Below are positions 1,318 through 17,606 of a stretch of 17,850 nucleotides of DNA, one piece after another (within the stretch, counting starts at the first letter, position 1; every line of letters starts with the position of its first letter). The translations under genes were made by a program, and so were the position numbers. The stretch lies in UHGV virus genome UHGV-0200089; one strand, given 5' to 3'. Origin of the DNA: a virus. The notes beneath the pieces are model-generated. The model was not told the DNA's origin and searched no databases. It saw only the letters and a list, made by a program, of their open reading frames with translations.

Positions 1318-1330
1318 GTCAGTTATTGGT
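1318..1330. repeat. attL core, direct repeat GTCAGTTATTGGT
   Basis: Identical 13-mer at 16868-16880. Here it is preceded by the native pflA RBS GGAGA and ATG (1316-1318) and followed by phage-type sequence. Confidence 0.8.
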
Positions 1331-1405
1331 GACATTTTTTGACATCTAATTGCATGAAATAAAAGGATTTATTTCTGGTCACGTCCACACATTGACCACA
1401 TCGAC

Positions 1406-1430
1406 AAAAAAAGCCCCTCAACTGAGGGGC
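1406..1430 (-). terminator. Rho-independent terminator downstream of ogr
   Basis: Stem GCCCCTC / GAGGGGC with a short loop; on the minus strand it is followed by a 7-nt T tract (A7 at 1406-1412 on plus). Confidence 0.65.
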
Positions 1431-1443
1431 TTTCTGTTTGTAA

Positions 1444-1662
1444 TTACATCCACATAATTTGCTGCCCTGACGGCAACGGGTGCGGCCTTACGGCGTGGAC
1501 TTCTCCCGGCTTCACGATGTATCTCTGTACCGACTCATAGGTGATGAACGTGGCGCTGCAATTCACGTTCTGACACTGGTGATAACGCTCTTTTGTCGTG
1601 TCAGTGATATAGCGACTTGTACGCGCATGTGCGGCATGCTGGCATAAAGGACAATGAAACAT
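1444..1662 (-). CDS. ogr: Ogr-type zinc-finger late-gene transcription activator (72 aa)
   Basis: Internal ATG at 1662-1660 gives MFHCPLCQHAAHARTSRYITDTTKERYHQCQNVNCSATF..., with CxxC...CxxxxC zinc-finger spacing, matching P2 Ogr as recalled. The 28-aa N-terminal extension in the ORF track is judged spurious. Confidence 0.88.
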   Translation of the reverse strand: MFHCPLCQHAAHARTSRYITDTTKERYHQCQNVNCSATFITYESVQRYIVKPGEVHAVRPHPLPSGQQIMWM

Positions 1663-1742
1663 CGCGAGCACCTCTTCCGGTTTTGTTGATGGTGCCATTT
1701 TAGTTAATTTATCCTTATAAAACAAACAGATAAAATAAAACA

Positions 1743-2906
1743 TCACTCATCATCTTCTGTTTCGTACTCCACATCAGAAAGCCTGACCTCAAGCTCCAAG
1801 GACGTCGTGAAGCCGCTATTATTCAGAAAATGTGTCACCTTAGTGATTGTCCAGTCCTGCTCGTCTATGACGCGCTTAAAGCCTGACACTTTGACCGGCG
1901 TTTCCGTGTAAATATCTGCCCGACCAGTGGCAAGGCTGATGGAGAACTCCGCAACGCCCCGTTGCAGTTTGTCCCACTTCGCCTGAGCGGCGCGCATGGC
2001 CTGCGCTTTCGTGGCATATACCGTGGTCAGGGCAAAAACGTTGTCAGCCTCACCGGCCATGTATTCACCTTCGCGCGCTTCCGGTACTTTTGGCTCTTTC
2101 TTCTGCGTGACCGGTTTCGCTTTCGGGTGCTCCAGTGCGCGCAGGTGTTTCTCTTTCTTTTTGCGTTTCAGTTTTACCTTCTGCTTTTGCGGCTTCGGGT
2201 CTTTGGTGTGTAACCACTTTGCCGTAACGCCGGTATAGGCTCCACGGTCAGCAATCGCAAAATGATGACGGTCGCCGTCGCTGCGGGTGATGGTGACCTG
2301 CGGGATTTTTTTACCGCTGGCCGTCACCCCCTGCCCCGCTTTGAGAAACAACAGTTTTCCCATTTTTACCGACACCTCACCGCCGTTGCGTTCTGCAAGA
2401 CGGGTCAGGAATTTCGCATCAGACTCCTGCGACTGGTCGATGTGCGGGATTTTAATTCCGGCCAGTGACGGAGCGACACTGGCCTCCAGCCTGTTACGGG
2501 TGGCTATCGCCTCAACAATCGCACCGAGCGTGGTGTCATGCCAGGAGCCTTCCCGGCGGGAATTGAGCGTCCCGCGGAAATCTGCACTCCGGGCGCGGAT
2601 GGTGACCACATCCGGTGCGCCCCGGTGTTCAACCTCATCAACGGTAAATTTCCCTTTGCATACCAGGGCAAAACCTTTCCAGCCGATATACACCGTCAGG
2701 ACAGCGCCACGAATCGGTAGCCCGACCTGCCCGTCGGCGTCGTTCAGTTCAATATCAAGCTGGTCAGCCTCAAAGCCCCGGTTATCCGTCAGGGTCATGC
2801 TCATCAGACGGTCGCTGATATTGCCGGTAATATCCCTGCTGTCGAGCATCAGCATGTAATCCGGCGTCAGCGTACTGCCTGCATCAAATGTCAGTGCATC
2901 CAGCAT
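1743..2906 (-). CDS. D: P2 gpD-like tail protein (387 aa)
   Basis: Full-length ORF with near-identity to P2 D as recalled (MLDALTFDAGSTLTPDYMLMLDSRDITGNISDRLMSMTLTDNRGFEADQLDIELND...). Its ATG overlaps the U stop as TAATG. Confidence 0.92.
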   Translation of the reverse strand: MLDALTFDAGSTLTPDYMLMLDSRDITGNISDRLMSMTLTDNRGFEADQLDIELNDADGQVGLPIRGAVLTVYIGWKGFALVCKGKFTVDEVEHRGAPDVVTIRARSADFRGTLNSRREGSWHDTTLGAIVEAIATRNRLEASVAPSLAGIKIPHIDQSQESDAKFLTRLAERNGGEVSVKMGKLLFLKAGQGVTASGKKIPQVTITRSDGDRHHFAIADRGAYTGVTAKWLHTKDPKPQKQKVKLKRKKKEKHLRALEHPKAKPVTQKKEPKVPEAREGEYMAGEADNVFALTTVYATKAQAMRAAQAKWDKLQRGVAEFSISLATGRADIYTETPVKVSGFKRVIDEQDWTITKVTHFLNNSGFTTSLELEVRLSDVEYETEDDE

Positions 2907-3385
2907 TATCCCGCCCCCGTCATACCCGTGAATCTGGTCGCCATACTGCCAGCCTTACCGATAAGCGATTCCGCCTGTTTACCGATATCGCCATAAAGCG
3001 CGGCCAGTGATTCATCAACGCGGGTGAGTGACAGCGTAAAATCAATTTTTCGGGGTGTGCCGTCTGCAAAGAAAATACTCCCTGTTTCATTCACCCTGCT
3101 GATGACATACATGCCGTAAATCATGCCGGTGCCATCCAGCAACGGCCACGCCCGGCCTTCCTCTGCCATCAGCCTGAGCGTGGTCATCGTCAGCTTGCCG
3201 CCGGTCAGTTCGGGATAAAGCACGCCGGCAAGCGTGATGTTTTCCTCACCCACACCGAGAAACTGAAAGGCATCCCGTTTACCGATACGGGAATTTGACG
3301 GCCAGCGATAATCTGATTCACGCTGCATGGTCTGGTGTGGCAGCGTCTGGCGCATAAAAACAAACATACCTAACGCGAGCATCAT
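2906..3385 (-). CDS. U: P2 gpU-like tail protein (159 aa)
   Basis: ORF beginning MMLALGMFVFMRQ..., lying between the T remnant and D as in P2. AGGAGG RBS (complement of 3394-3399) sits upstream of the ATG. Confidence 0.88.
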   Translation of the reverse strand: MMLALGMFVFMRQTLPHQTMQRESDYRWPSNSRIGKRDAFQFLGVGEENITLAGVLYPELTGGKLTMTTLRLMAEEGRAWPLLDGTGMIYGMYVISRVNETGSIFFADGTPRKIDFTLSLTRVDESLAALYGDIGKQAESLIGKAGSMATRFTGMTGAG

Positions 3386-3399
3386 TTTTCGTCACCTCC

Positions 3400-3681
3400 T
3401 TAACCGTCATGCATCATGCTGGCACGAGCGCGCGCACGTTTATCCCGCTCGTATTTTTCGAGCGCATCCTGTAACTGGCGGTCAAGCTGTGTCCCCGGCG
3501 CAGTACCACCCGTCAGGCTGATGTGATATTCGTTTTTACTCTGGTCCACATAAGAGCGGCCAGCCGGTGCCGTGACCGGCTGATAAGCCTGATAGCCTGC
3601 ATAAGAGCTGGTCGCCGGAATATAACCACCGGTGCCATACGTGGCGGCATGAGTTCTGGCGGCGGTCTGGTCAAGTGTGTC
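3400..3681 (-). pseudogene. T: C-terminal remnant of P2 gpT-like tail tape-measure gene (about 93 codons; upper boundary approximate)
   Basis: The frame ends in TAA at 3402-3400 just upstream of the U RBS, in the position T occupies in P2. The protein-like tail is ...YGTGGYIPATSSYAGYQAYQPVTAPAGRSYVDQSKNEYHISLTGG...EKYERDKRARARASMMHDG. Upstream of ~3690 the same frame reads antisense through the P remnant. Confidence 0.5.
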
Positions 3682-3684
3682 TGA

Positions 3685-3996
3685 CTCTTTGTTGATGACC
3701 CCGAGCTTTTCCAGTACACGCCGGAAATGAAAACCGCAATGGTGCTCAAGGCAAAAGACGTTATTCGCCGTGGCTGTCTGGAATATGACGTCAGCGCCAC
3801 CGACATCACCAGCTCGTTTATGGCTATCCGCAAGACCATGACCAGCAGCGGACGCAGCGCCACCTATGAGGCCAGCCGCAGCGAGGAAGCCAGCCACGCC
3901 GACCTCGCCTGGGCGACCATGCACGCTCTGTTAAATGAGCCACTCACCGCCGGTATCAGCACCCCGCTGACATCCACCATTCTGGAGTTTTACTGA
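3685..3996 (+). pseudogene. P: C-terminal remnant of P2 gpP-like terminase large subunit (5' boundary approximate)
   Basis: The frame opens after TGA at 3682-3684 and ends in TGA at 3994-3996, overlapping the Q start as TGATG, which is the P-then-Q arrangement of P2. Only ~100 codons remain, against ~590 for a full-length P. Confidence 0.5.
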
Positions 3997-5030
3997 TGAG
4001 CAAGAAAAAAGGGAAAACACCGCAACCTGCGGCAAAAACAATGACCGCCAGCGCCCCGAAAATGGAGGCATTCACCTTTGGTGATCCGGTGCCGGTACTC
4101 GACCGCCGTGACATTCTGGATTATGTCGAGTGCATCAGTAACGGCAGATGGTATGAGCCACCAGTCAGCTTTACCGGTCTGGCAAAAAGCCTGCGTGCTG
4201 CCGTGCATCACAGCTCACCGATTTACGTCAAACGCAATATTCTGGCCTCGACATTTATCCCGCATCCGTGGCTTTCCCAGCAGGATTTCAGCCGCTTTGT
4301 GCTGGATTTTCTGGTGTTCGGTAATGCGTTTCTGGAAAAGCGTTACAGCCCCACCGGTAAGGTCATCAGACTGGAAACCTCACCGGCAAAATATACCCGC
4401 CGTGGCGTGGAGGAGGATGTTTACTGGTGGGTGCCGTCCTTCAACGAGCCGACAGCCTTCGCGCCCGGTTCCGTGTTTCACCTGCTGGAGCCCGATATTA
4501 ATCAGGAGCTGTACGGCCTGCCGGAATATCTCAGCGCCCTTAACTCTGCCTGGCTGAATGAGTCGGCCACGCTGTTCCGCCGCAAGTATTACGAAAACGG
4601 CGCACATGCCGGATACATCATGTACGTTACCGATGCCGTGCAGGATCGCAACGATATCGAAATGCTTCGCGAAAACATGGTTAAGTCGAAAGGCCGCAAT
4701 AACTTTAAAAATCTGTTTCTCTATGCCCCACAGGGGAAAGCCGACGGCATTAAAATTATCCCGCTCAGTGAAGTGGCAACGAAGGACGATTTTTTTAATA
4801 TCAAAAAAGCCAGCGCCGCTGACCTGCTGGACGCGCATCGCATCCCCTTTCAGTTGATGGGGGGCAAGCCGGAGAACGTCGGGTCGCTGGGTGATATTGA
4901 GAAAGTGGCAAAGGTCTTTGTCCGCAATGAGCTTATCCCGTTACAGGACAGGATCCGCGAGATAAACGGCTGGCTCGGTCAGGAGGTCATCCGATTTAAA
5001 AACTACTCACTGGACACTGACAACGGCTGA
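3996..5030 (+). CDS. Q: P2 gpQ-like capsid portal protein (344 aa)
   Basis: Near-identity to P2 Q as recalled (MSKKKGKTPQPAAKTMTAS...AFTFGDPVPVLDRRDILDYVECISNGRWYEPPVSFTGLAKSLRAAVHHSSPIYVKRN...). GGAG RBS at 3984-3987; followed by a terminator and cos. Confidence 0.92.
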   Translation: MSKKKGKTPQPAAKTMTASAPKMEAFTFGDPVPVLDRRDILDYVECISNGRWYEPPVSFTGLAKSLRAAVHHSSPIYVKRNILASTFIPHPWLSQQDFSRFVLDFLVFGNAFLEKRYSPTGKVIRLETSPAKYTRRGVEEDVYWWVPSFNEPTAFAPGSVFHLLEPDINQELYGLPEYLSALNSAWLNESATLFRRKYYENGAHAGYIMYVTDAVQDRNDIEMLRENMVKSKGRNNFKNLFLYAPQGKADGIKIIPLSEVATKDDFFNIKKASAADLLDAHRIPFQLMGGKPENVGSLGDIEKVAKVFVRNELIPLQDRIREINGWLGQEVIRFKNYSLDTDNG

Positions 5031-5218: not shown

Positions 5219-5459
5219 CGCCCGCTTCATGGGGAGGTTTTAATGCAAACGCATCAGGAAGGGCAGACCTAGTCACATGTAGAATACGATAGCAATAAAA
5301 AAGTCTAATTAGAATGCAAATTGATGCAACTCTATGCCCTCCAAGAACTCCAAACCTGAAAGATTTATGTAAAACATAGTGTTCGTTTCACCAAAATACA
5401 TATAAACTACATTAAAATAGAAATTTGTCTCACCTATAAGCCATTTAGACAACAGATTA

Positions 5460-6623
5460 ATGAGGTTTGTATCACAAATGACCACAAACGAGATACTTTC
5501 GCAGCTTATCAGTCTTGGACTCAAAGGGGATAAAGTTGCTTTTGTTCGGCAGGCTTCGAAACTCGCGCGTTCCTATGATTCTATGGGGCTGCCTGAGCTT
5601 GCTTCAGCCATTAGAGGTAGTATTCAAGATAAAAACACGTTTAACTTGCAGAAAGTATCACGCAGTACATCACCTATTTTTGAACGTCTTGATACATTAC
5701 CTGTAGATAAAGAAACTAAATTTGATTTAGCAGACGTAACTCAACCGTCTTCTGAAATTCAACTCCCATTGTTGAAAGATAGCACTCTGAAAAAAATTAA
5801 AGAATTTTTGACTTTCACTGAACGAGCTAAAGAATTAAAGGATGCCGGTCTTGGCGTGACATCCTCTATGATTTTATATGGGCCACCAGGTTGTGGTAAA
5901 ACCTTGACATCAAAATATATTGCATCCTGTCTAAATTTACCGCTTCTTACTGCAAGATGTGACTCCTTAGTCTCATCATATCTGGGGTCTACTTCTAAAA
6001 ATATCAGGCAGCTATTTGAGTATGCAAGTAAAGCACCATGTGTTTTATTTCTAGATGAACTAGATTCTCTAGCAAAGGCTAGAGATGATCAGCATGAGTT
6101 AGGTGAACTGAAGAGGGTGGTGGTTTCTTTATTGCAAAATATTGACAATCTACCTGAAGAAACAATATTGATTGCTGCAAGTAATCATGAAAATCTTCTA
6201 GATAGCGCAGTTTGGAGGCGCTTTGAGTATAGAATATCTATTGGATTGCCTGATTTTGAAGTCAGAAAACAACTATTTGAACAATATTCAAACATAAAAG
6301 CTACATATGACGATTTTGTTGATGACCTTGCGGAAATATCATCAGGGCTAAACTGCTCATTTATAGAACAATGCTGCTTAAGATCTGAGCGACATGCTCT
6401 GGTTTACAATAATAAACAAATCGATACCCGATTTTTAGTCGAGGCTATCTTAGAAGCGAAGGGAGTTACATTTGATGAAGAAGATAATTTACTTATAAAG
6501 ATTGTGACCACTCTCAGAGAATACAATCCCAAAAGATTTACAATACGAAAGATAGCAAAAATACTAGGGCTTTCAAATGCTAAAGTGTCAAGGCTAACTA
6601 AGAACTATAGAGAGATATTATGA
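5460..6623 (+). CDS. AAA+ ATPase with C-terminal HTH-like segment (387 aa); cargo gene 1 of an IetAS-like pair
   Basis: Walker A 'GPPGCGKT', Walker B 'VLFLDELD', and a sensor/arginine region 'SNHENLLDSAVWRRFEYRISIGLPD'. The C-terminal 'FTIRKIAKILGLSNAKVSRLTKNY' looks like a helix-turn-helix. The stop overlaps the next gene's start as ATGA. Start could instead be ATG 5478, which has a GAGG ~12 nt upstream. Confidence 0.85.
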   Translation: MRFVSQMTTNEILSQLISLGLKGDKVAFVRQASKLARSYDSMGLPELASAIRGSIQDKNTFNLQKVSRSTSPIFERLDTLPVDKETKFDLADVTQPSSEIQLPLLKDSTLKKIKEFLTFTERAKELKDAGLGVTSSMILYGPPGCGKTLTSKYIASCLNLPLLTARCDSLVSSYLGSTSKNIRQLFEYASKAPCVLFLDELDSLAKARDDQHELGELKRVVVSLLQNIDNLPEETILIAASNHENLLDSAVWRRFEYRISIGLPDFEVRKQLFEQYSNIKATYDDFVDDLAEISSGLNCSFIEQCCLRSERHALVYNNKQIDTRFLVEAILEAKGVTFDEEDNLLIKIVTTLREYNPKRFTIRKIAKILGLSNAKVSRLTKNYREIL

Positions 6624-8884
6624 GTAACAAAGAAAGACCAATAAAAATAATTGAGGCGACACCTCAAGATTTTACTGAAAAAACATATAATTTCGGAAAG
6701 AAACAACCTATCCGAACAGTAACAACTAGTCTAAAAAATAGACTCAAACAAGAAGTCGATGACGTTAAAAATTTTTTCCAGAGCTCATTTAAAAAATGGC
6801 CCAATATACCGGCGGTGGCTAGAGTTACTCTTCATGAAAAAGCTCTTGCTAAGTCACATCGCCCATCAAGCCTATTAGGTGATAATACATGTCCCGTAAT
6901 AGGCAGTGATAATTTTGGAGAATTACTTATAAGTGTTACTGAAAAAGGGTTAGCACAACTTCGCAAAAAAATTGAAAATAGCACTAATTCTCATAATGGG
7001 ACAGTACATATTGCTGTAATTGAAAAGATCGAACCTTTTAGTCTTAACCATGATGTTATAGATAAAAATAAATCAGATAGTTTTCTTCTGAAACTCTTTG
7101 ACCATAAAGATAGAACAACTAACCGCAGTATCGACAAAGAATTAATGGAATTTGCAGATGAACTAGGAATACAAAAACCCAAAAAGTATGATATCAGTTC
7201 AGATTTGAGTATATATGAAGTAAAAGGGAATGATAACATCGCCCAACTGGCAAGTTTTATTGGCATACGAAAATTAGAACCTATGCCAACATTTGGTCTT
7301 ACTCATACAGTATCGCAATATATTCCTGCTGAAACTCTAGACCTAGATGATTTTCCCTTACCTCAAGAGGATAAACATTATCCACTACTCGGAATTATAG
7401 ATAGCGGAGTCGATCCCAATAACAACATACTTAGGCCATGGATTTGGGATAGTTTAGATTTAGTAAAAGGAGAACACGACTATTCTCATGGGAACATGGT
7501 TGCAAGTTTAGCAATTAATGGAAGATGGTTGAATAACTATGCTGGTTTTCCTCAATGCCAAGCTGAAATTGTTGATGTTGCAGCCTTTCCCAAAGATGGT
7601 ACGCTCAAATTGCCACAATTAATGAAAGCTATCCGAGAGGCTGTGACCACCTATCCAGAAGTACGTGTATGGAATCTGTCATTAGGTTGTCAATCCCCAT
7701 GTTCTGAAGACAGCTTCTCTGAATTGGGGCATTTTTTAAATGCACTTCATGATGAGCATGATTGTCTTTTCGTCGTAGCATCCGGCAACTACATTTATGA
7801 TCCTCAACGAACCTGGCCTCCTCAAGAATTAGGTGGGCATGACAGAATATCAGCCCCCGCAGATTCTGTTCGTTCATTAACTGTTGGCTCAGTTGCCCAT
7901 TTAGAATCGTCTGACTCTGTGGTCAAAAGATTTGAACCTTCATCTTTTTCTAGAAGAGGTCCCGGCCCAGCCTTTATACCCAAACCAGAGATAAATCACT
8001 TTGGAGGTAATTGTGACAGTAAATTAAACTGTGAACATACCGGAATCATAGCTATTGGCGAGGACAATGCTCTTTGCGAAAGTATTGGCACAAGTTTATC
8101 AGCACCGTTAATCTCAAGTTTAGCGGCATCACTGTGGCATGAACTAGATGTTAATGGTTCTATTTCACCATCGCCTGAACGTATCAAGGCACTATTAATT
8201 CATTCTGCGTTAAAAAACTCACCAGCCAAAACGGAGCATTATGCGTTTAATTATCAAGGATTTGGACGCCCAAGCGATCATATAAATGATATTATTGGTT
8301 GCAATAAAAATGAGATTACATTTCTATTTGAAATAGATACCCGAGAAGGTATTGAATTCAGTAGAACGCCATTTGTAATACCACAGTCATTACGTACTGA
8401 GGATGGAAAATTCACAGGTGAAATTATTATGACACTCGTTTATTCTCCACCGCTTGATTATGACTACCCATCTGAATATTGCCGTTCTAATGTGGATGTG
8501 TCATTCGGGACTTACACTTATGATCCAGTTAACGCTAAATGGATACATAGCGGAAAAATTCCACAAATAAAAGAAAAGAGTGAATTATTTGAAAAGGTAC
8601 TGATAGAAAATGGCTTCAAATGGTCTCCAGTCAAAGTTTATAGAAAACAATTTCCGCAAGGTATAAATGGGGAGCAATGGAGACTTAAACTTGATGTTCA
8701 GAGACGAGCAGAGCAAGAGCCTCTATCTTCACCTCAACGTGCTGTATTGGCTATTACGTTAAGATCTCTTGCCAATTCTACTACAGTCTACAACGAAGCC
8801 GAGGTTGAAATAAATAATCTTGGTTGGAAAGAAACTGATATTGTTGTTCGTGAACAACCAAAAATCAGGATTCGTCAAAAATAA
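6620..8884 (+). CDS. Subtilisin-like (S8) serine peptidase with N- and C-terminal extra domains (754 aa); cargo gene 2
   Basis: S8 catalytic motifs in canonical order: Asp 'LLGIIDSGVD', His 'DYSHGNMVASLA', oxyanion Asn 'FVVASGNY', Ser 'GTSLSAPLISS'. AT-rich coding sequence; translationally coupled to the ATPase. Confidence 0.85.
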   Translation: MSNKERPIKIIEATPQDFTEKTYNFGKKQPIRTVTTSLKNRLKQEVDDVKNFFQSSFKKWPNIPAVARVTLHEKALAKSHRPSSLLGDNTCPVIGSDNFGELLISVTEKGLAQLRKKIENSTNSHNGTVHIAVIEKIEPFSLNHDVIDKNKSDSFLLKLFDHKDRTTNRSIDKELMEFADELGIQKPKKYDISSDLSIYEVKGNDNIAQLASFIGIRKLEPMPTFGLTHTVSQYIPAETLDLDDFPLPQEDKHYPLLGIIDSGVDPNNNILRPWIWDSLDLVKGEHDYSHGNMVASLAINGRWLNNYAGFPQCQAEIVDVAAFPKDGTLKLPQLMKAIREAVTTYPEVRVWNLSLGCQSPCSEDSFSELGHFLNALHDEHDCLFVVASGNYIYDPQRTWPPQELGGHDRISAPADSVRSLTVGSVAHLESSDSVVKRFEPSSFSRRGPGPAFIPKPEINHFGGNCDSKLNCEHTGIIAIGEDNALCESIGTSLSAPLISSLAASLWHELDVNGSISPSPERIKALLIHSALKNSPAKTEHYAFNYQGFGRPSDHINDIIGCNKNEITFLFEIDTREGIEFSRTPFVIPQSLRTEDGKFTGEIIMTLVYSPPLDYDYPSEYCRSNVDVSFGTYTYDPVNAKWIHSGKIPQIKEKSELFEKVLIENGFKWSPVKVYRKQFPQGINGEQWRLKLDVQRRAEQEPLSSPQRAVLAITLRSLANSTTVYNEAEVEINNLGWKETDIVVREQPKIRIRQK

Positions 8885-8889
8885 GCATT

Positions 8890-8914
8890 ATGGTCACCTT
8901 TTATAGGTGACCAT
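8890..8914. terminator. Perfect 9-bp palindromic hairpin between the two convergent cargo operons
   Basis: ATGGTCACC ttttata GGTGACCAT, located between the S8 stop (8884) and the membrane-protein stop (8918). U-tracts are weak on both sides, so termination efficiency is uncertain. Confidence 0.5.
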
Positions 8915-8917
8915 TTA

Positions 8918-9679
8918 CTACACCTTATTATTTTCAACTATTTTATGAATATCCATATCAAACCAAGAAACTTGCGAAATTTCTTTTAGTGGAAAGATGA
9001 TACTAGTATCAGCATCCTCAAGCTCTCTATATTCATTCACCAAGATTACTTTCAATGAATCCTTATCTCTATACCCAGAGATAATAGGATAGATTGAAAC
9101 ATACTGGTTAGGTCCTTCTTTCTCGTTAGGCTCACCTAATGCGTTAACAATTCCTACATATGTCTTTTTATTTTGCAACGTAATAAGTATTGAACGTCTA
9201 TCAACTAACGAATCAAAAAATATTTCATCCATTGGATTATCATTAATAAGCTCTTGCCTCATCCTTAGCATGACAAGATTCTCATAATCAATATTGGCAG
9301 CCTTTACCCCTTGGATATAATTTATAATTTTAGCTCTATATATAACCAAATATCTAGCACCGACACTCCATATCCAAGCCAAAAATATCGTTCCACATGA
9401 AAGTAAAATCATCCATCCTATGATTCTTTCAGTACCATTGTCACTAAGTTTGAGATCTAATTGTTCCCGAACCATCGTGACAGGATGGAAGCTCGGACAT
9501 ATCCATTTTATTAAGTAAGCTATAATCAATGTCCATATAAAACACCACAGACCAAAGGCGGCTGACTTCATATATAACAACTGCCCATCATAACGGTGTA
9601 ATCTATAGAAATGATAAGGATGAGTGGTTAATACAATATAACCACTCACAAGTAATGGAATAATTAATAAAGCAAACAT
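8918..9679 (-). CDS. Uncharacterised membrane protein (253 aa), three predicted N-terminal TM helices plus a ~140-aa soluble C-terminal domain; cargo gene
   Basis: Hydrophobic segments FALLIIPLLVSGYIVLTT, AAFGLWCFIWTLIIAYLIKWI and IIGWMILLSCGTIFLAWIWSV. The ATG lies 2 nt after the upstream gene's TAA. AT-rich. No family recognised. Confidence 0.7.
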   Translation of the reverse strand: MFALLIIPLLVSGYIVLTTHPYHFYRLHRYDGQLLYMKSAAFGLWCFIWTLIIAYLIKWICPSFHPVTMVREQLDLKLSDNGTERIIGWMILLSCGTIFLAWIWSVGARYLVIYRAKIINYIQGVKAANIDYENLVMLRMRQELINDNPMDEIFFDSLVDRRSILITLQNKKTYVGIVNALGEPNEKEGPNQYVSIYPIISGYRDKDSLKVILVNEYRELEDADTSIIFPLKEISQVSWFDMDIHKIVENNKV

Positions 9680-9681
9680 TA

Positions 9682-9918: not shown

Positions 9919-10009
9919 TTAACCTCCACTTGATTGATGCCAAGATAGTAATCACCTCCTCACAATATCTTACCAACCTAACAACTAACAGAACACTGTG
10001 TATAAGTCC

Positions 10010-10037
10010 AGTATAGTTTAATTAATAAATTAGGCAA
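10010..10037 (-). promoter_or_regulatory. Candidate sigma70 promoter for the minus-strand cargo operon
   Basis: On the minus strand: TTGCCT, 16-nt spacer, TATACT, about 90 nt upstream of the 9918 start. Sequence-only prediction. Confidence 0.3.
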
Positions 10038-10226
10038 ATCTATCAAAATGGTATTTTGTTAAAAATTCAGCTAACTCTGAGGTTGGTAAAACAGTCCACC
10101 AGATGTATCGCTAAAGCACTTAGAAACCACTATAACCATCCTAAGTGTACCAGTCAGTCTGTTTGTCTAATCGCATCACTATGCTCGTTATTCTATCCCC
10201 CGCCAATCCTGAGCTGGCTGCGTTCT

Positions 10227-10433: not shown

Positions 10434-10888
10434 TATCCAAGCCACCCGTTTTGCTGTGCACGCTCCACCTGTTCATCTGAATAGTTCCATATCCCATCCG
10501 CACCAACCACTGCCCCGCCAGACATCCCCGTCTCTGGTTCATACACAACAGCAAGGCCGAGCTGATGCATAATTTCATGATTAATTCTGAATACCAGACC
10601 ACGCTCACTAAGTTCTTTCCAGTTCACAAACTCATATGCGCCTGTATTAAGCAGCTCAATACTTAGCAAGACATAATCTTCCAGCCAGTCTGACAAGTCA
10701 GTAACATCTGTTATCCGGGCTTCAACCTTTCGCCCCGTATACACACCCTGCACCCATTCATGCAAAATCAACGTGTCCCCGCGCTCATAATTACGGTCAT
10801 TTTTCCGAAACTCTGCGCGTTTCTTTCCTTCCAGCACAAGGTCAAAATATTTTGCGTGCAGCTTTACCTCGTGAATTTTTGCCATCAT
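10433..10888 (-). CDS. ASCH/PUA-like domain protein (151 aa) in the P2 'orf91' position
   Basis: From the first ATG (10888-10886), which overlaps the gene A stop as ATGA: MMAKIHEVKLHAKYFDLVLEGKKRAEFRKNDRNYERGDTLILHEW... resembles the ASCH/DUF3850 fold signature. The C-terminal region contains 'INHEIMHQLG' (an HExxH). The track's longer GTG-initiated version is rejected. Confidence 0.72.
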   Translation of the reverse strand: MMAKIHEVKLHAKYFDLVLEGKKRAEFRKNDRNYERGDTLILHEWVQGVYTGRKVEARITDVTDLSDWLEDYVLLSIELLNTGAYEFVNWKELSERGLVFRINHEIMHQLGLAVVYEPETGMSGGAVVGADGIWNYSDEQVERAQQNGWLG

Positions 10889-13170
10889 TTCCACTCCATT
10901 ACTGTTGAGAATCCCGGCCACTCATCAGCGACCGGATACGTGAATTTTTTCCCGTCATAATTTACGGTCGCGCCACGCGCCAGCGCCTCAAGCTCCCATC
11001 GCTGCGGCCTGATACCGTTCTGAGCAAGGTCAACGCGGATACGGGTAATTTGCATTCTTTCCGACCGGGTCAGTCTGGCCGATGGTGCAATTTCATGTGG
11101 TTTTAACGGGCTTCCGTTTCTTTGCTGACGGTTTGGCGTTCTCAGGTCGTGTTTTAATGCACCCCTGAGCGCCCTCACGACCTCCGGTTCATTCCATTCA
11201 ATAACACCGTCATCAACCAGATTAAGCACTGCTGCGGCGTGCTCAGAAGGTGTGGGAGCCGGTAACGAAGTATCACCACCGGTGAGCTTTCCACAGTTAT
11301 TGACAGGACTCCGAGGCGCGGCGATGCCGCTTTTTAAAGTCAAAGGCTCAACGACCGGAACTTTCGGCACAATGCGCCAGTCCGTCGTTCTGGTGATATG
11401 AATATGACGCGCGCCGAGATGCGGCGCGTAAATGCCGACCACTCTCTCGACTTCTTCCTCGTATTCGTTAACGTCATCCGACGGGCTACGGGCGACCCTG
11501 ACAGTCTGACAATCGCGCGGGACATTTGCCCCGCCCTGCGCGCTGATATACAACGCAAAATCGCCACTGTCTGCGGCGGCGCGTGCAGCCTCCACGCGTT
11601 CGTCAAATTCATCAGCAATGCTGACGCCGCGAGGCAATTTACGTAGCTCACGGTAAGCTCCCATTGTCGGCAGGCCAACCGTTTTAAATTGCGGGATGCG
11701 CCACGTTGACGCCCATGCGGTAACAGCCGCCGCAGTATCTTTCAGCGGTCTGCCGGTATCGTTATCGAGCTGACCATCCAGTGCATAGCCGTCGATATTT
11801 TTTGAAATGTATTTCGCGATATATCCCGCAGCACCGCCCCGGTTAAGGTGTTTTGCCTGAAAACGGTTTCGCGCGGCTCCTCTTTCGTCGCCATCCTCTT
11901 TGAGCGCATAGCGGCGCATGATTTCGATAATCTGGTTACGCTGGCGTGGATTACAAAAAAGCATCATATGCCAGTGCGGCGTTCCGTCGTGGTGTGGCTC
12001 GACGACTCGCAAACCGTAGACCTGTAAATCATTATCCTTGAATGCCGTGCGCATCAGGCTCCAGATACGGCAGAGATAACGCTGCGCATCCTTTGGATTA
12101 AATGCCTCATCATTCCAGCCGTGATTAAGCTGGACGGTTTTATTTTCGCCTTTTCCAACCTGACGTGTCGGGTGATACTTTGACGGCGCGGTCAGCGTGA
12201 TAAACATCCCCACATCACCCTCTGAGGCGGCGTAACGCTCAATACCGGCAATGGTGTTCATCAGCTCCATCCGGCGAATTTCAGGATTAGAAATACTGCC
12301 CATCACCTTACTGATAAGGTCGATGCGCTCGCCGGTTTCCCTGTTTTCAAGGTCACACGATTTAAGAAATTCCAGATTTGCCTGGCGGCGCGCACGCACA
12401 TCACGAATGGCATGTTTACTGGCATAAGGTGAACGGTCTTTATTGACCTCCCCGACAGCTATCAGTAACGCCTCATGCCAGCGCATACGCTGGCCTTTAA
12501 GCTGATGAGTCCACCACTCATCGTTAAACAGACGGGCAATGGCAGAATATGCCTGCCTCGTGGTCATCTGCCCTTTACGGTATTTGTTCCAGTAGAGAGG
12601 GGAAATATTGAAAGCACGTGCAGCGCCAGCAACATGACCATAGAGGTGAGCCTGCGCCTCATCCGTAAACAGCGATTCTTTTTCGCCATGTGCATCCACC
12701 CAGGCATCGCTGAGTTCCTCATACATCATGAAAAGCTGCGATGAGATACGGGCAGCAAACTTTTTCAGCTCCTTGTCATTCATTCCCGGCAGGCGCGCAT
12801 AGTGGTCACGCTCTGCCAGAAACAGTAACGACGCGTCGGTGTTCATTTCATGGCGCTGATTCACACGCTCAATGCGCGGCCATAAACGACGCTGAAAAGT
12901 GGATGTGAGGAAATAAAACCCGTGCACCGGGCTTTTATTGCGCCGGATGTAGTCATAGCGTGAAGTAAACAGCGAGCGCAAAAAGTAAGGCAGGCGGTTA
13001 ATCGTGGATAAAACACCTTGCACCTGACGCATCTCGTCACGTGTAAGAGGTCTTTCGCGCCCGACAGCCTCGCGTGGCGCGTTCCATGCATAAGCACCGG
13101 TAAACGCCTTACCGGTGCCTGCGGCAAATGCTGACGGAGGGACAAAACGCCCGGAGGCTTTAACGGCCAT
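10885..13170 (-). CDS. A: P2 gpA-like rolling-circle replication initiation endonuclease (761 aa)
   Basis: From ATG 13170-13168 the protein begins MAVKASGRFVPPSAFAAGTGK... and carries the tyrosine motif 'YIAKYISKNIDGY'. Length and sequence match P2 A as recalled. The track's start at 13212 is a TTG extension. Confidence 0.92.
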   Translation of the reverse strand: MAVKASGRFVPPSAFAAGTGKAFTGAYAWNAPREAVGRERPLTRDEMRQVQGVLSTINRLPYFLRSLFTSRYDYIRRNKSPVHGFYFLTSTFQRRLWPRIERVNQRHEMNTDASLLFLAERDHYARLPGMNDKELKKFAARISSQLFMMYEELSDAWVDAHGEKESLFTDEAQAHLYGHVAGAARAFNISPLYWNKYRKGQMTTRQAYSAIARLFNDEWWTHQLKGQRMRWHEALLIAVGEVNKDRSPYASKHAIRDVRARRQANLEFLKSCDLENRETGERIDLISKVMGSISNPEIRRMELMNTIAGIERYAASEGDVGMFITLTAPSKYHPTRQVGKGENKTVQLNHGWNDEAFNPKDAQRYLCRIWSLMRTAFKDNDLQVYGLRVVEPHHDGTPHWHMMLFCNPRQRNQIIEIMRRYALKEDGDERGAARNRFQAKHLNRGGAAGYIAKYISKNIDGYALDGQLDNDTGRPLKDTAAAVTAWASTWRIPQFKTVGLPTMGAYRELRKLPRGVSIADEFDERVEAARAAADSGDFALYISAQGGANVPRDCQTVRVARSPSDDVNEYEEEVERVVGIYAPHLGARHIHITRTTDWRIVPKVPVVEPLTLKSGIAAPRSPVNNCGKLTGGDTSLPAPTPSEHAAAVLNLVDDGVIEWNEPEVVRALRGALKHDLRTPNRQQRNGSPLKPHEIAPSARLTRSERMQITRIRVDLAQNGIRPQRWELEALARGATVNYDGKKFTYPVADEWPGFSTVMEWK

Positions 13171-13435
13171 ATGAGCCAAAAGCCTCAGAACAACGCTTGC
13201 TGAGTTGCTCAACCTGCGCGTTTAAATCAGCAAAAGACTTTGCGCTTCCGGTCAGAATATCGTGATGCATCAGGCCGGAAACGAGCTGGCTTAATTTCGG
13301 GTAATAACCAACCACCGCCAGCCATTCCTGACCGGCGTTTTTACCGCTTTCCGCTCTCTTTTTCTCGTGGAGAATAAACTGAAAGCTGTCACTGGTAACG
13401 ACATAACGTTCGCCAATTTCGATACGAATACTCAT
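13160..13435 (-). CDS. Small early-operon protein (91 aa), P2 orf83 position
   Basis: ATG overlaps the upstream stop as ATGA; ends 8 nt before the gene A start. Assigned by synteny with P2. Confidence 0.7.
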   Translation of the reverse strand: MSIRIEIGERYVVTSDSFQFILHEKKRAESGKNAGQEWLAVVGYYPKLSQLVSGLMHHDILTGSAKSFADLNAQVEQLSKRCSEAFGSYGR

Positions 13436-13656
13436 GCCATTCTCCGGTAATGCTTGTTTTTTGCTTCAAAGACTGACTGGCAGGAAACACAACGCGTGGC
13501 TGACGGATAAGCTGCACGACGGGCAGCAGGTATTGGCGCGTCACACTCTTCGCAAACCAGCGCAGAAACACCGCAATGTTTTACCCTTGCCGCGTTAATC
13601 TGGCGCTCCAGTAATTCAGCCTGTTGTTCCTGAATAAAATCTATGTTGTCCGGCAT
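13432..13656 (-). CDS. TraR/DksA-type C4 zinc-finger protein (74 aa), P2 orf82 position
   Basis: 'CEECDAPIPAARRAAYPSATRCVSCQ' gives CxxC-(17)-CxxC spacing typical of the TraR/DksA zinc finger. TAATG coupling to the upstream gene. Confidence 0.75.
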   Translation of the reverse strand: MPDNIDFIQEQQAELLERQINAARVKHCGVSALVCEECDAPIPAARRAAYPSATRCVSCQSVFEAKNKHYRRMA

Positions 13657-14913: not shown

Positions 14914-14923
14914 CCTTTCCACC

Positions 14924-15295
14924 TTAAGCCGCACGGCCATGTCTTGATTTGCTGTAACTAATGCGATTTTTCCAGTCATGCCATTCTGTCGGAGCTTCAT
15001 CAACCAGTTGGGCTGCGTACTTGTCCCACTCACGGCGATTAATCCATAATTCAGCTTTCCCTCTTGGTTTTAATGGGTCTGTCATGTAGAAGGCTGGCAG
15101 CTTTCCTGCTTTAGCCATTTCAGCCACCGCGCGTGGTGTCTTACCGATGTAAAGAGCAAAACCTTCTTTCGACAGCAAATCAGATGGGCGCTCTGAAATC
15201 TGAATGCTTTTACGTTTGGCTTCATTTTCGAAACTTGCCTCATCGCTAGTTGGACAAGAAATTTCTACATTTGTCGTCACTTTGCTATCCTCCAT
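14924..15295 (-). CDS. cox: Cox-like protein (123 aa) of the P2-type lysogeny switch
   Basis: Divergent from C and first gene of the cox-B-A early operon. The central HTH-like segment 'FALYIGKTPRAVAEMAKAGKLPAFYMTDP' is Cox/AlpA-like. The sequence differs clearly from P2 Cox as recalled. Confidence 0.65.
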   Translation of the reverse strand: MEDSKVTTNVEISCPTSDEASFENEAKRKSIQISERPSDLLSKEGFALYIGKTPRAVAEMAKAGKLPAFYMTDPLKPRGKAELWINRREWDKYAAQLVDEAPTEWHDWKNRISYSKSRHGRAA

Positions 15296-15388
15296 AAGAT
15301 TTGCGATTCACCAACTGGAGCCATCTAGAGCCTTTTTGAGTGAATCACAAATTGCCAAGTAGCAATATAATTGGAGATTAGCAAAATT
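15296..15388. promoter_or_regulatory. Immunity switch region between divergent cox and C (expected to hold the early and repressor promoters and operators)
   Basis: 93-bp AT-rich spacer between divergent starts. Contains the inverted repeat GATTCAC (15303-15309) / GTGAATC (15336-15342) and a TATAAT at 15366-15371. The assignment is by analogy with P2. Confidence 0.45.
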
Positions 15389-15688
15389 ATGTCAAGTGAA
15401 CAAAGTGAGAAACTAAAGCTCATCCGTGAATCCGAACGCCTTAAAACTAAGGAACTTGCTGAATTAATTGGAATTAATTACTACACATATCATGGATATG
15501 AATCAGGAAAATCAAAAATGCCTATGGAAGCAGGTATGAAGCTGTTTAAGCATCCACGCTTTCGCAAGTATCGTGACTGGTTCATGTTTGATGAAACAGA
15601 TCCAGCAGCTGGACAAATAGCCCCGGCTCTCGCACACATTGGGCAAGACTCAACAACCTTGCACCACTCAGACCAGAAGACTGGCTGA
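15389..15688 (+). CDS. C: P2 C-type immunity repressor (99 aa)
   Basis: ATG 15389 with GGAG at 15373-15376. The C-terminal half '...QIAPALAHIGQDSTTLHHSDQKTG' matches the P2 C dimerisation region as recalled, while the N-terminal DNA-binding half is divergent. Same length as P2 C. Confidence 0.85.
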   Translation: MSSEQSEKLKLIRESERLKTKELAELIGINYYTYHGYESGKSKMPMEAGMKLFKHPRFRKYRDWFMFDETDPAAGQIAPALAHIGQDSTTLHHSDQKTG

Positions 15689-15781
15689 CGATTTATTCAG
15701 CATATGTGTGTAGTAAATGTACGAAAGAAAATTGCATTAATTTTCAAGTAGTAGAAGTAAACAGCGTCATCGGAGGGCTTT

Positions 15782-16777
15782 ATGTCTATTAAAAAGCTCG
15801 ATGATGGTCGTTATGAAGTGGACGTCAGACCGCAGGGTGCAGATGGAAAACGTATCAGGCGGAAATTTAAAACTAAAGGTGAAGCTCAGGCATTCGAACG
15901 TCATGTACTGGTTAACTACCACAACAAAGAGTGGTTGGAGAAACCAGCCGACCGCCGAACTCTTACAGAGTTGTTAGGTAGATGGTGGATATATCACGGA
16001 AAATCACATGAGCGTGGAGATATTGAACGGGGGCGTTTAACGACAATAATCGCCAAATTTGCAGAAATGGGAGTGTCCAGAGCTGACCAGCTAACAAAGA
16101 AAACGATAACTGATTATCGCGTTGTAATGATGAACGATGGTCTAAAACCAGCCAGCGTAAATCGACATCTGGCAATAATGAGCGGGATGTTCACCAAGTT
16201 AATTGACGCCGGTGAATACCACTCCCACAACCCGTTCCGTGAGATTAAACGGTTACGTGAAGCTGTTACGGAAATGGCTTTTTTGTCCAGTGAAGAGATT
16301 ACGCGGCTGTTATCCATGCTTGATGGTGATGAATTAAATGCAACTCTGGTCTGCCTTTCTACTGGTGGACGCTGGAGTGAAGTGTCTAATTTAAAAGCTG
16401 AACACATCATTAACCAGATGGTTACGTTTATGAAAACTAAAAACGGAAAACGCAGGACAATTCCCGTTTCGCAGGACCTGATTAAACGGATCAAGACCAA
16501 AAATTCAGGCAGGCTTTTTAATGCCAGTTACTACAAAGTGCGTAACGCTCTCAGGGAAGTAAAACCCGATTTACCTGACGGACAAGCAGTACATGTTTTG
16601 AGGCATACATTTGCCACACATTTTATAATGAATGGAGGTAACATAATCACATTGCAGCGCATCCTGGGTCATTCTAACATTCAGCAAACTATGACCTACG
16701 CACACTTTGCACCGGATTTCTTACAAGATGCTGTGACTCTTAACCCGGTGTCAGGAATGTCCATAATGCGTCCATAA
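15782..16777 (+). CDS. int: Tyrosine integrase, P2 Int family (331 aa)
   Basis: MSIKKLDDGRYEVDVRPQGADGKRIRRKF... N-terminus and the C-terminal catalytic region '...HVLRHTFATHFIMNGGNIITLQRILGHSNIQQTMTYAHFAP...' (R, H-x-x-R, Y) are colinear with P2 Int as recalled. Sits next to attR. Confidence 0.93.
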   Translation: MSIKKLDDGRYEVDVRPQGADGKRIRRKFKTKGEAQAFERHVLVNYHNKEWLEKPADRRTLTELLGRWWIYHGKSHERGDIERGRLTTIIAKFAEMGVSRADQLTKKTITDYRVVMMNDGLKPASVNRHLAIMSGMFTKLIDAGEYHSHNPFREIKRLREAVTEMAFLSSEEITRLLSMLDGDELNATLVCLSTGGRWSEVSNLKAEHIINQMVTFMKTKNGKRRTIPVSQDLIKRIKTKNSGRLFNASYYKVRNALREVKPDLPDGQAVHVLRHTFATHFIMNGGNIITLQRILGHSNIQQTMTYAHFAPDFLQDAVTLNPVSGMSIMRP

Positions 16778-16808
16778 ACCAGAGTTAACTAGAGCCAATT
16801 GAAGCGAT

Positions 16809-17606
16809 ATGAGTAATTTAACTAATTGTAATACAACAGAAAATACCGCTACGGCGGGGGCTACCAAGTCAGTTATTGGTCGCATTCACTCCTTTGAATC
16901 CTGTGGAACCGTAGACGGCCCAGGTATTCGCTTTATCACCTTTTTCCAGGGCTGCCTGATGCGCTGCCTGTATTGTCATAACCGCGACACCTGGGACACG
17001 CATGGCGGTAAAGAAGTTACCGTTGAAGATTTGATGAAGGAAGTGGTGACCTATCGCCACTTTATGAACGCTTCCGGCGGCGGCGTTACCGCATCCGGCG
17101 GTGAAGCAATCCTGCAAGCTGAGTTTGTTCGTGACTGGTTCCGCGCCTGCAAAAAAGAAGGCATTCATACCTGTCTGGACACCAACGGTTTTGTTCGTCG
17201 TTACGATCCGGTGATTGATGAACTGCTGGAAGTAACCGACCTGGTAATGCTCGATCTCAAACAGATGAACGACGAGATCCACCAAAATCTGGTTGGAGTT
17301 TCCAACCACCGCACGCTGGAGTTCGCTAAATATCTGGCGAACAAAAATGTGAAGGTGTGGATCCGCTACGTTGTTGTCCCAGGCTGGTCTGACGATGACG
17401 ATTCAGCGCATCGCCTCGGTGAATTTACCCGTGATATGGGCAACGTTGAGAAAATCGAGCTTCTCCCCTACCACGAGCTGGGCAAACACAAATGGGTGGC
17501 AATGGGTGAAGAGTACAAACTCGACGGTGTTAAACCACCGAAGAAAGAGACCATGGAACGCGTGAAAGGCATTCTTGAGCAGTACGGTCATAAGGTAATG
17601 TTCTAA
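16809..17606 (+). CDS. pflA: Pyruvate formate-lyase activating enzyme (radical SAM) with a prophage-derived 20-aa N-terminal extension replacing the native start
   Basis: From 16869 the translation is [40 protein letters not shown]..., i.e. E. coli PflA with the radical-SAM CxxxCxxC cluster. The only in-frame ATG upstream of the cluster is 16809, inside phage-arm sequence, with a weak GAAG RBS. Confidence 0.88.
16868..16880. repeat. attR core, direct repeat GTCAGTTATTGGT
   Basis: Identical to 1318-1330. It corresponds to codons 1-5 of native pflA, except that the native ATG is replaced by AAG here (A at 16866-16867). Confidence 0.8.

What the first reader, a model, noticed from the sequence alone, without database searches (positions are those of the whole stretch)
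1318..16880. Prophage boundaries: 13-bp direct repeats identify the pflA start codon as the integration site
GTCAGTTATTGGT occurs at 1318-1330 and 16868-16880. Sequence left of attL (GGAGAAACACCGCA-ATG-TCAGTTATTGGT) joined to sequence right of attR (CGCATTCACTCC...) reconstitutes the canonical pflA 5' end ([12 protein letters not shown]), so the empty site can be inferred precisely. The integrase abuts attR. I do not recall a protein-gene start codon, rather than a tRNA or intergenic site, as an established P2-family attachment site, so this looks unusual.
Basis: seen in the sequence. Interest (0 to 1): 0.7.

Follow-up and report, generated by a model that had tools for sequence, protein, structure and literature searches.

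The report
Known P2-like prophage site in pflA
The two 13-base repeats are the true ends of a defective P2-like prophage inserted in the first codons of the E. coli gene pflA, a real but already published and common phage attachment site, at which the phage supplies a substitute start codon for the gene.

Summary
GTCAGTTATTGGT occurs only at 1318-1330 and 16868-16880. The K-12 pflB-pflA sequence equals attL-left plus attR-right. A free phage (Peduovirus P24A7b) carries the matching attP. The element is a P2-like prophage that has lost about 20.3 kb of virion genes and carries an IetAS defence pair.

The claim that the site is unusual does not hold. Of 5426 complete E. coli genomes, 405 have this junction and the other 5021 have the intact site. 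Twenty sequenced phages share the integrase. A 2011 paper places phages PhiD145 and PhiD160 at MG1655 coordinate 950293 in the old numbering, which falls inside this core.

Integration changes the pflA ATG to AAG, but the phage arm supplies an in-frame ATG at 16809. This gives a 265-residue PflA with a new 20-residue head. The ATG, exactly 60 nt upstream, is kept open in four diverged phage lineages (E. coli, Citrobacter, Rahnella and a decayed relic). That suggests selected gene repair, as with SXT at prfC. Whether the fused protein is expressed or active was not tested.

Verdict: real, correctly interpreted, already known, low interest.

The parts
12..1124 (+). 3' part of pflB (formate C-acetyltransferase), host DNA left of the prophage
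   Evidence: ORF; annotated pflB at the same position in E24377A and K-12
1301..1344 (+). Native pflA ribosome-binding site (GGAGA), the ATG at 1315-1317 and a stranded 8-codon ORF (MSVIGDIF*) left behind at attL
   Evidence: Read directly from the sequence. The part left of the core is identical to K-12
1318..1330 (+). attL core GTCAGTTATTGGT (third base of the pflA start codon plus codons 2-5)
1382..1400 (-). Two P2-type Int arm-binding repeats in the P' arm: TGTGGACG (1389-1382) and TGTGGTCA (1400-1393), 11 bp apart
   Evidence: Motif scan against the consensus tgTGGaCa given in PMC3448106
1410..1433 (.). GC-rich hairpin flanked by A and T runs. It is the likely bidirectional terminator for ogr and for transcripts from the stranded pflA promoter
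1444..1662 (-). ogr, the late-gene activator
   Evidence: Pfam Ogr_Delta, E 1e-21
1743..2906 (-). Tail gene D
   Evidence: Pfam Phage_GPD
2906..3385 (-). Tail gene U
   Evidence: Pfam Phage_P2_GpU
3400..3717 (-). 3' remnant of the tape-measure gene T. The deletion junction lies at 3715-3717 (microhomology TAC) and fuses T to the 3' end of terminase gene P
   Evidence: blastn against P24A7b: window 1314-3717 matches phage 24202-21799 and window 3715-5218 matches phage 1504-1. Junction sequence
3996..5030 (+). Portal gene Q, intact, followed by the phage genome end (cos region) near 5218
   Evidence: Pfam Phage_portal; alignment to the end of the phage genome
5460..8884 (+). IetA (5460-6623) and IetS (6620-8884), an anti-phage defence pair in the variable cargo region next to cos
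   Evidence: PADLOC IetA E 9e-132 and IetS E 1e-273; Pfam AAA and Peptidase_S8
10885..13212 (-). Replication gene A
   Evidence: Pfam Phage_GPA, E 3e-123
14924..15295 (-). cox (excision directionality factor and repressor of Pc)
   Evidence: Pfam Phage_Cox, E 3e-29
15344..15395 (.). Face-to-face promoter-like sites: Pc-like on the + strand (15344-15371) and Pe-like on the - strand (15395-15367)
   Evidence: consensus matches only
15389..15688 (+). Immunity repressor C
   Evidence: HTH match, sub-threshold: Pfam HTH_19 at 24.6 bits against a gathering cutoff of 30.2, E 2.3e-5. Annotated helix-turn-helix regulator at the same place in E24377A
15782..16777 (+). Tyrosine integrase (331 aa)
   Evidence: Pfam Int_N and Phage_integrase. 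100% identical to the pro483 integrase; the next phage integrases are about 55% identical
16758..16776 (-). Two P2-type arm repeats in the P arm, TATGGACA (16765-16758) and TATGGACG (16776-16769), which overlap the end of int
16809..16868 (+). Phage-supplied ATG and 19 further codons ([20 protein letters not shown]) in frame with pflA
   Evidence: PGAP annotates the 265-aa pflA from this ATG in E24377A. The frame is conserved in four lineages
16868..16880 (+). attR core. In attP it sits inside the inverted repeat ACCAA-N8-TTGGT (16863-16880)
16809..17606 (+). Re-headed pflA ORF (265 aa). Residues 21-265 are identical to crystallised E. coli PFL-activating enzyme
   Evidence: PDB 3C8F match

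Best explanation
A P2-like (Peduovirus) temperate phage with a PhiD145-type tyrosine integrase inserted by site-specific recombination between its attP and a 13-bp identical core at the very 5' end of pflA. The core is the G of the ATG plus codons 2-5.

The likely strand-exchange region is GTCAGTTA. In attP this is flanked by the inverted half-sites ACCAA and TTGGT, and the arms carry P2-type Int repeats. These last points are inferred from the sequence.

The prophage later lost about 20.3 kb (terminase gene P through most of tape-measure gene T) at a 3-nt microhomology. It can no longer build virions. It keeps int, cox, C, the replication genes, ogr, portal gene Q, cos and an IetAS defence cargo.

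Integration separates pflA from its own promoter, ribosome-binding site and ATG, which stay at attL in front of an 8-codon stub. At attR the phage arm supplies an in-frame ATG 60 nt upstream, so pflA reads as a 265-residue protein with a new 20-residue head.

The integration mechanism and the known identity of the site are shown; I put them at about 0.95. That the re-headed pflA is expressed and functional is inferred, at about 0.6. Transcription would most likely come from read-through of the phage C-int operon or from a weak promoter at the end of int.
For: - **Exact repeats:** the 13-mers are more than chance would give.
- **Empty site:** K-12 reconstructs it exactly.
- **attP:** the free phage attP equals the two prophage arms joined at the core.
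- **Occupancy:** 405 occupied plus 5021 intact sites account for all 5426 complete E. coli genomes, so no other element uses the site.
- **Sequenced relatives:** 20 phages share int and attP at 98% identity or more.
- **Identity as P2-like:** P2 gene set by Pfam and 97-98% nucleotide synteny with P24A7b apart from the deletion and the cargo region.
- **Arm repeats:** they match the published P2-type consensus.
- **Published site:** PhiD145 and PhiD160 are placed at 950293 in old numbering, inside the core.
- **Replacement start:** an in-frame ATG exactly 60 nt upstream with an open frame is present in four lineages that differ at 32-50% of leader positions. The other two frames carry 2-4 stops in each lineage.
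- **Same architecture elsewhere:** Cox-C-Int-extended pflA occurs in Citrobacter and Int-extended pflA in Rahnella.
- **Extended PflA in other genera:** found in Salmonella and Klebsiella.
- **Transcription:** no terminator-like site on the + strand between int and the new ATG, and the leader RNA is not unusually structured.
- **Tolerance of an extension:** other taxa have a native N-terminal extension of similar length directly after pflB with no prophage.
Against: - There is no expression or activity data for the fused PflA.
- The Shine-Dalgarno match before the new ATG is weak (GAAG).
- The promoter-like site at 16740-16767 scores only 9 of 12, and such sites are no more frequent here than in shuffled sequence.
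- The first 21 nt of the leader are conserved at the DNA level. This could reflect a protein-binding site in the P arm rather than coding.
- The four lineages are related, so the roughly 0.005 chance estimate for four open frames overstates independence.
- In the relic locus L098, pflA carries a frameshift. It could be a pseudogene or an assembly error.
- I could not read Karlsson 2006 or Mandali 2010. The link to PhiD145 rests on a table coordinate, plus my own knowledge of the 777-bp offset between MG1655 sequence versions at this position.
Confidence: 0.9

Rival explanations
1. The prophage simply inactivates pflA. The upstream in-frame ATG is incidental, and lysogens lack PflA activity (insertional inactivation, as with comK or hlb phages).
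For: The native promoter, ribosome-binding site and ATG are removed from the gene. The Shine-Dalgarno match at the new ATG is weak and the promoter-like match is poor. The relic locus L098 shows a frameshift in pflA.
Against: The ATG, the 60-nt length and the open frame are kept in four lineages with 32-50% leader divergence, while the other frames are full of stops. The pflA body is 100% identical to the crystallised enzyme even behind this old, degraded prophage. PGAP annotates intact 265-aa pflA in every listed lysogen.
Confidence: 0.3
2. The 13-bp repeats are a chance duplication or a transposon target-site duplication unrelated to the integrase.
For: Thirteen bases is short. Another exact 16-mer repeat (1304-1319 and 13564-13579) in the window does look like chance.
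Against: None of 200 shuffles gave two copies. The same 13-mer sits in the attP of free phages between the same two arms. The junctions are identical in 405 genomes and all the others have the uninterrupted site. No transposase lies at the ends.
Confidence: 0.01
3. This is a new integration specificity distinct from PhiD145, so the site is novel for P2-like phages.
For: I could not align the PhiD145 integrase with this one. No open-access paper found names pflA together with P2-like phages.
Against: The published PhiD145 and PhiD160 coordinate converts to a position inside the core. No other element occupies this site in any of 5426 genomes. Phages with this integrase have been in public records since at least pro483 and pro147, and PGAP annotates the junction routinely.
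Confidence: 0.05

Closest known systems
P2-like coliphages PhiD145 and PhiD160 (Karlsson et al. 2006, J Bacteriol 188:3923; Mandali et al. 2010, Virology 408:64; Table 1 of PMC3448106)
   Same: They are P2-type phages whose E. coli attachment site is given as MG1655 950293 in old numbering, which falls inside the 13-bp core at pflA codons 1-5. They have P2-type arm repeats, and the site is used as an engineered integration site in pIT5.
   Different: Nothing is known to differ in the integration module. This copy is a defective prophage with a 20.3-kb deletion and IetAS cargo. I could not compare the integrase sequences directly.
Peduovirus P24A7b, P24E6b, Escherichia phages D8, 11W, 12W, pro483, pro147 and S164, and Yersinia phages vB_YpM_46 and vB_YpM_115
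   Same: The int and attP arm are 97.9-100% identical. The whole backbone is 97-98% identical to P24A7b.
   Different: Those are complete genomes of about 29-34 kb. The window element lacks P through T and has a different cargo region.
Phage P2 (locI, intergenic) and phage 186 (tRNA-Ile)
   Same: The family, gene order, C/Cox switch and Int/IHF/Cox-type attP architecture are the same.
   Different: The integrase is only about 55% identical to P2-type integrases. The target lies inside the 5' end of a protein-coding gene.
SXT/R391 integrative conjugative elements at the 5' end of prfC (Hochhut and Waldor 1999, from my own knowledge) and dusA-specific integrase islands (PMC4482086)
   Same: They integrate in the 5' end of a housekeeping ORF. 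For SXT, the element supplies a new 5' coding sequence so that a hybrid protein is made.
   Different: The element types and integrase lineages are unrelated. Expression of the hybrid PflA is not demonstrated here.

Membership tests
P2-like phage (Peduovirus) prophage | P2 gene set and order (ogr-D-U-T ... Q-cos ... A-B-cox-C-int) | tested here: met
   Pfam hits. Collinear at 97-98% nucleotide identity with P24A7b.
P2-like phage (Peduovirus) prophage | Complete head, lysis and tail modules, i.e. a viable phage | tested here: not met
   Phage coordinates 1505-21798 are absent, so this is a defective prophage. This deletion junction is not found in any of 5426 complete genomes.
P2-like phage (Peduovirus) prophage | C/Cox switch with face-to-face promoters | tested here: inconclusive
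   Cox and an HTH repressor are present, and promoter-like sites face each other at 15344-15395. These are consensus matches only.
PhiD145-type integration module | attB at the published PhiD145/PhiD160 position | tested here: met
   950293 (PMC3448106 Table 1) plus 777 gives 951070 in NC_000913.3, which is inside the core of pflA (950340..951080). The ileY check shows the paper uses old numbering. The 777 offset is from my own knowledge.
PhiD145-type integration module | Integrase and attP sequence identity to PhiD145 | not testable with these tools
   Accessions AM158280, AM159077 and AJ298559 and the primary papers are not held.
PhiD145-type integration module | attP x attB gives attL and attR with a shared core | tested here: met
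PhiD145-type integration module | P2-type arm direct repeats (tgTGGaCa) | tested here: met
   Two repeats in each arm, 11 bp apart, with one or two mismatches each. Consensus from PMC3448106.
Tyrosine recombinase | Catalytic domain with the R...HxxR...Y signature | tested here: met
   Pfam Phage_integrase and Int_N. The motifs GGRWSE, HVLRHTF and TYAHF are visible in the translation.
IetAS defence system | Adjacent AAA ATPase (IetA) and S8 subtilase (IetS) | tested here: met
   PADLOC E 9e-132 and 1e-273. The ORFs overlap by 4 nt. Defence activity was not tested.
Elements that repair the 5' end of their target gene (SXT at prfC type) | Element supplies a new in-frame start for the interrupted ORF | tested here: met
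   ATG at 16809, conserved in four lineages.
Elements that repair the 5' end of their target gene (SXT at prfC type) | Element supplies transcription, and the hybrid protein is functional | not testable with these tools
   There is only the absence of a terminator and a weak promoter-like site. No expression data are available.

The most novel reading that the evidence does not exclude
The attP arm of the PhiD145-type phage family encodes a conserved 'start-codon cassette'. In the free phage this is a 27-codon ORF. On integration it becomes the new translation start of pflA. This makes an N-terminally extended PflA and places a central enzyme of anaerobic metabolism under phage (C-int operon) transcription in about 7% of E. 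coli and in other Enterobacterales. In some lineages it persists as the gene's permanent 5' end after the prophage has decayed (L098). If it has not been described, this would be a phage example of SXT/prfC-style gene repair that also rewires regulation.
Probability: 0.3. Interest if true: 0.45.

Novelty: already known. Interest (0 to 1): 0.2.

Why it matters
As posed, the finding matters little. The pflA 5' end is a published and common attachment site for one integrase class of P2-like phages, and genome pipelines already annotate the junction.

Three practical points follow. The 265-residue 'pflA' in RefSeq is a phage-host fusion. Prophage-boundary callers should expect boundaries inside a coding sequence here. 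Strains lysogenic at this site may express PflA from phage signals, which could affect mixed-acid fermentation phenotypes and the use of the D145 site for engineering.

The replacement start codon is conserved across genera. This is a small, testable example of a phage preserving the function of the gene it interrupts.

Tried and rejected
- **Chance repeat:** rejected.
- **tRNA or other RNA target:** no tRNA or tmRNA and no Rfam family anywhere in the window.
- **Other elements at the same site:** none. 405 occupied plus 5021 intact sites account for all 5426 genomes.
- **Second exact repeat:** AGAAACACCGCAATGT at 1304-1319 and 13564-13579 looked like a possible secondary site. It is absent from the homologous position in P24A7b and E24377A, so I treat it as a chance match.
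- **Literature searches:** combining pflA with P2-like, prophage, attB, insertion site or D145 found nothing relevant in the open library. A hit in PMC5382810 was a false match to 'Pflanzenfamilien', and PMC3149613 was irrelevant. Karlsson 2006 and Mandali 2010 are not held, and the PMC3448106 supplement is not held.
- **IMG/VR integrase relatives:** they are cut at the integrase stop codon and give no attR flank.
- **Context of Salmonella extended PflA:** P0017 and P0028 could not be looked up.
- **Extensions of the MSTT... type:** P0066 and P0095 have no integrase upstream. P0095 lies directly after pflB. P0066 is on a 1.5-kb contig behind an unidentified gene. I treat them as native extensions, not phage-derived.


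Full report
**Observation.** The 13-mer GTCAGTTATTGGT occurs exactly twice in the window, at 1318-1330 and 16868-16880. There are no near-matches, and none of 200 dinucleotide-preserving shuffles gave two copies. Identity continues imperfectly to 19 nt (D12). The integrase ORF (15782-16777) ends 90 nt before the right copy.

**Empty site and attP.** The MG1655 pflB-pflA region (L002; pflA at 950340..951080 on the minus strand) aligns base for base with the sequence left of the left copy. It then runs through one copy of the core into the sequence right of the right copy. A free phage genome, Peduovirus P24A7b, carries between int and ogr the sequence ...GCTACCAAGTCAGTTATTGGTGACATTTTTTGA.... 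This is the window's attR left arm, the core and the attL right arm. All four att sites of a conservative site-specific recombination are therefore accounted for.

In attP the core lies within the inverted repeat ACCAA-N8-TTGGT. I infer that these are the core-type Int half-sites and that GTCAGTTA is the overlap region. Each arm carries two direct repeats 11 bp apart:
- P' arm: TGTGGACG and TGTGGTCA at 1382-1400.
- P arm: TATGGACA and TATGGACG at 16758-16776.

These match the published P2-type arm consensus tgTGGaCa (PMC3448106).

**What the element is.** Pfam identifies Ogr, gpD, gpU, portal Q, replication protein A, Cox, an HTH repressor and a tyrosine integrase. Three blocks of the window align with P24A7b at 97-98% identity:
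- Window 1314-3717 matches phage 24202-21799.
- Window 3715-5218 matches phage 1504-1.
- Window 10214-16886 matches phage 30853-24181.

Phage coordinates 1505-21798 are therefore missing. This stretch runs from most of terminase gene P through most of tape-measure gene T, about 20.3 kb of head, lysis and tail genes. The junction shows a 3-nt microhomology, TAC. The prophage is defective.

This particular junction occurs in none of 5426 complete E. coli genomes. The 5-kb stretch 5219-10213 next to the genome end replaces the P24A7b cargo. It encodes IetA and IetS (PADLOC E 9e-132 and 1e-273; AAA and S8 peptidase domains) plus two ORFs with no family match. This cargo occurs in 12 complete genomes. 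In at least two of them (NZ_CP090611.1, ABWA45) it lies about 22-27 kb from the attL junction, which indicates a full-length prophage.

**How common and how known.**
- Both junctions are present in 404-405 of 5426 complete E. coli genomes, including E24377A and APEC O78. The intact site is present in exactly the remaining 5021. The site is therefore used by this phage type and by nothing else.
- Twenty phage records share the int and attP arm at 98% identity or more. They include P24A7b, P24E6b, D8, 11W, 12W, pro483, pro147, S164 and several phages isolated on Yersinia pestis. The next most similar phage integrases are only about 55% identical, so this is a distinct specificity class.
- Table 1 of Nilsson et al. 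[quoted passage not shown] It also says that four E. coli sites (P2, WPhi, PhiD145, 186) were identified previously.
- The same table places phage 186 at 2783812 in ileY, whereas ileY is at 2785762-2785837 in NC_000913.3. The paper therefore uses the pre-2013 sequence version.
- At 0.95 Mb the offset between versions is +777. This is from my own knowledge of the U00096.2 to U00096.3 changes, and it is consistent with the 1978 offset seen at ileY. It gives 951070, which is 10 nt inside pflA and within the 13-bp core (951066-951078).
- The D145 site is also one of the integration sites of the pIT5 engineering plasmids (PMC12765450).

I could not obtain the primary papers or the PhiD145 sequences, so this identification rests on the coordinate.

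**Consequence for pflA.** At attL the native ribosome-binding site and ATG now head an 8-codon ORF (MSVIGDIF*). This runs toward the hairpin at 1410-1433 that also terminates ogr. At attR the start codon has become AAG.

The frame stays open upstream to an ATG at 16809, just after a TGA at 16800. This gives a 265-residue protein, [20 protein letters not shown] fused to SVIGRIHSF.... PGAP annotates pflA from this ATG in E24377A and in the other listed lysogens. Residues 21-265 are 100% identical to the crystallised enzyme, PDB 3C8F. In the free phage the same ATG heads a 27-codon ORF that ends just past the core.

**Is the replacement start selected?** Relatives of the integrase sit immediately upstream of pflA in several other hosts:
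- Escherichia albertii, with 100% Int identity.
- Citrobacter portucalensis, with 79% Int identity and a Cox-C-Int-pflA arrangement.
- Rahnella ecdela and related viral contigs, with 76% Int identity.
- Locus L098, where only a decayed integrase fragment remains (42% identity over residues 258-323).

In all four DNA lineages an ATG lies exactly 60 nt before pflA codon 2, and the frame is open:
- [20 protein letters not shown] (E. coli type).
- MSNLTHCKDKENTAITAPVK (Citrobacter).
- MSNLTDCISTESTTESGGH followed by the retained M (Rahnella).
- MNKITDCITTDPSDLVEDKK (relic L098).

The leaders differ at 19-30 of 60 positions, and the other two frames contain 2-4 stops in every lineage. With leader base composition, a random 19-codon stretch is open with probability 0.27, so four independent ones would be open with probability about 0.005. 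The lineages are not fully independent, so this overstates the case. Only the first seven residues are conserved. The constraint therefore looks like 'a start and an open frame' rather than a particular peptide.

Extended PflA proteins with further leader variants are on record from Salmonella (MSNLNDCIKKENTAAAAEKK-PIIG and MTNESVAVTADKK-PVIG) and Klebsiella. I could not inspect their genomic context. Other taxa have a native N-terminal extension of about 20 residues: P0095 lies directly after pflB with no integrase. An extension is thus tolerated in nature.

On the + strand there is no terminator-like site between int and the new ATG. There is a weak promoter-like site at 16740-16767 and a better Pc-like site upstream of C. 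The leader RNA is not unusually structured (z = 0.63).

My reading is that pflA in lysogens is transcribed by read-through of the C-int operon or from the weak site, and is translated from the phage ATG. This is inference, and I put it at about 0.6. The main rival, at about 0.3, is that pflA is simply inactivated.

**Comparison with known systems.** The integration module belongs with PhiD145 and PhiD160. The backbone belongs with P24A7b-like Peduoviruses. The way it treats its target gene resembles SXT/R391 elements, which integrate in the 5' end of prfC and supply a new 5' coding sequence (from my own knowledge). It also resembles the dusA 5'-end islands (PMC4482086, abstract seen). Those elements and their integrases are unrelated to this one.

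**Verdict.** The feature is real and correctly interpreted. It is an already known and common attachment site in a defective prophage, and interest is low. The one point that may deserve a short follow-up is the replacement start codon for pflA, which is conserved across genera.

Noticed in passing
window 3400-3996 (junction at 3715-3717): A 20.3-kb internal deletion fuses the 3' end of tape-measure gene T to the 3' end of terminase gene P at a TAC microhomology, removing all head, lysis and most tail genes. This junction is absent from all 5426 complete E. coli genomes searched. E24377A has a different decay pattern at the same site (an IS21-family insertion in T and a different deletion).
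   Followed up: yes
window 5460-8884: An IetA (AAA ATPase) and IetS (S8 subtilase) anti-phage defence pair lies in the variable cargo region next to the phage genome end. GC content is about 35%, against about 52% for the backbone. The same 5-kb cargo occurs in 12 complete E. coli genomes.
   Followed up: partly
window 8918-9918, minus strand: Two adjacent low-GC ORFs (253 aa and 78 aa) lie between IetS and the conserved ASCH/DUF3850 gene. They have no Pfam or PADLOC match. They travel with IetAS in all 12 genomes and could be further cargo of unknown function.
   Followed up: partly
window 1304-1319 and 13564-13579: An exact 16-nt repeat, AGAAACACCGCAATGT, links the pflA ribosome-binding-site/ATG region to the inside of the TraR/DksA-like phage gene. 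The internal copy is not present at the homologous place in P24A7b or E24377A, so it is probably chance (about 0.04-0.07 expected).
   Followed up: yes
L098 (Logan SRR2175557 contig), 1800-2841: Only a decayed integrase fragment remains upstream of a pflA that still carries a phage-type 20-codon leader. This suggests the phage-derived 5' end can outlive the prophage. In this contig pflA is split by a 1-nt frameshift, which may be an assembly error or a pseudogene.
   Followed up: partly
L099-L101 (Logan contigs); L102 (ENA contig): In some other bacteria PflA has a native N-terminal extension of about 20 residues (MSTTTNIIPTADLSTTAPPATLGRIHSF...) with no integrase nearby. In L099-L101 the gene lies directly after pflB. 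L102 is too short to show its neighbours.
   Followed up: no
L007 (Terrisporobacter mayombei assembly, 513-bp contig at 0.8x coverage): A 99% identical fragment of this E. coli phage integrase sits in a Firmicute draft assembly on a tiny low-coverage contig. It is almost certainly contamination.
   Followed up: no
E. coli genomes: Three of the 394 matches to the phage leader arm are on records labelled as plasmids, and 11 genomes that have the junction were not matched by the 103-nt leader query.
   Followed up: no
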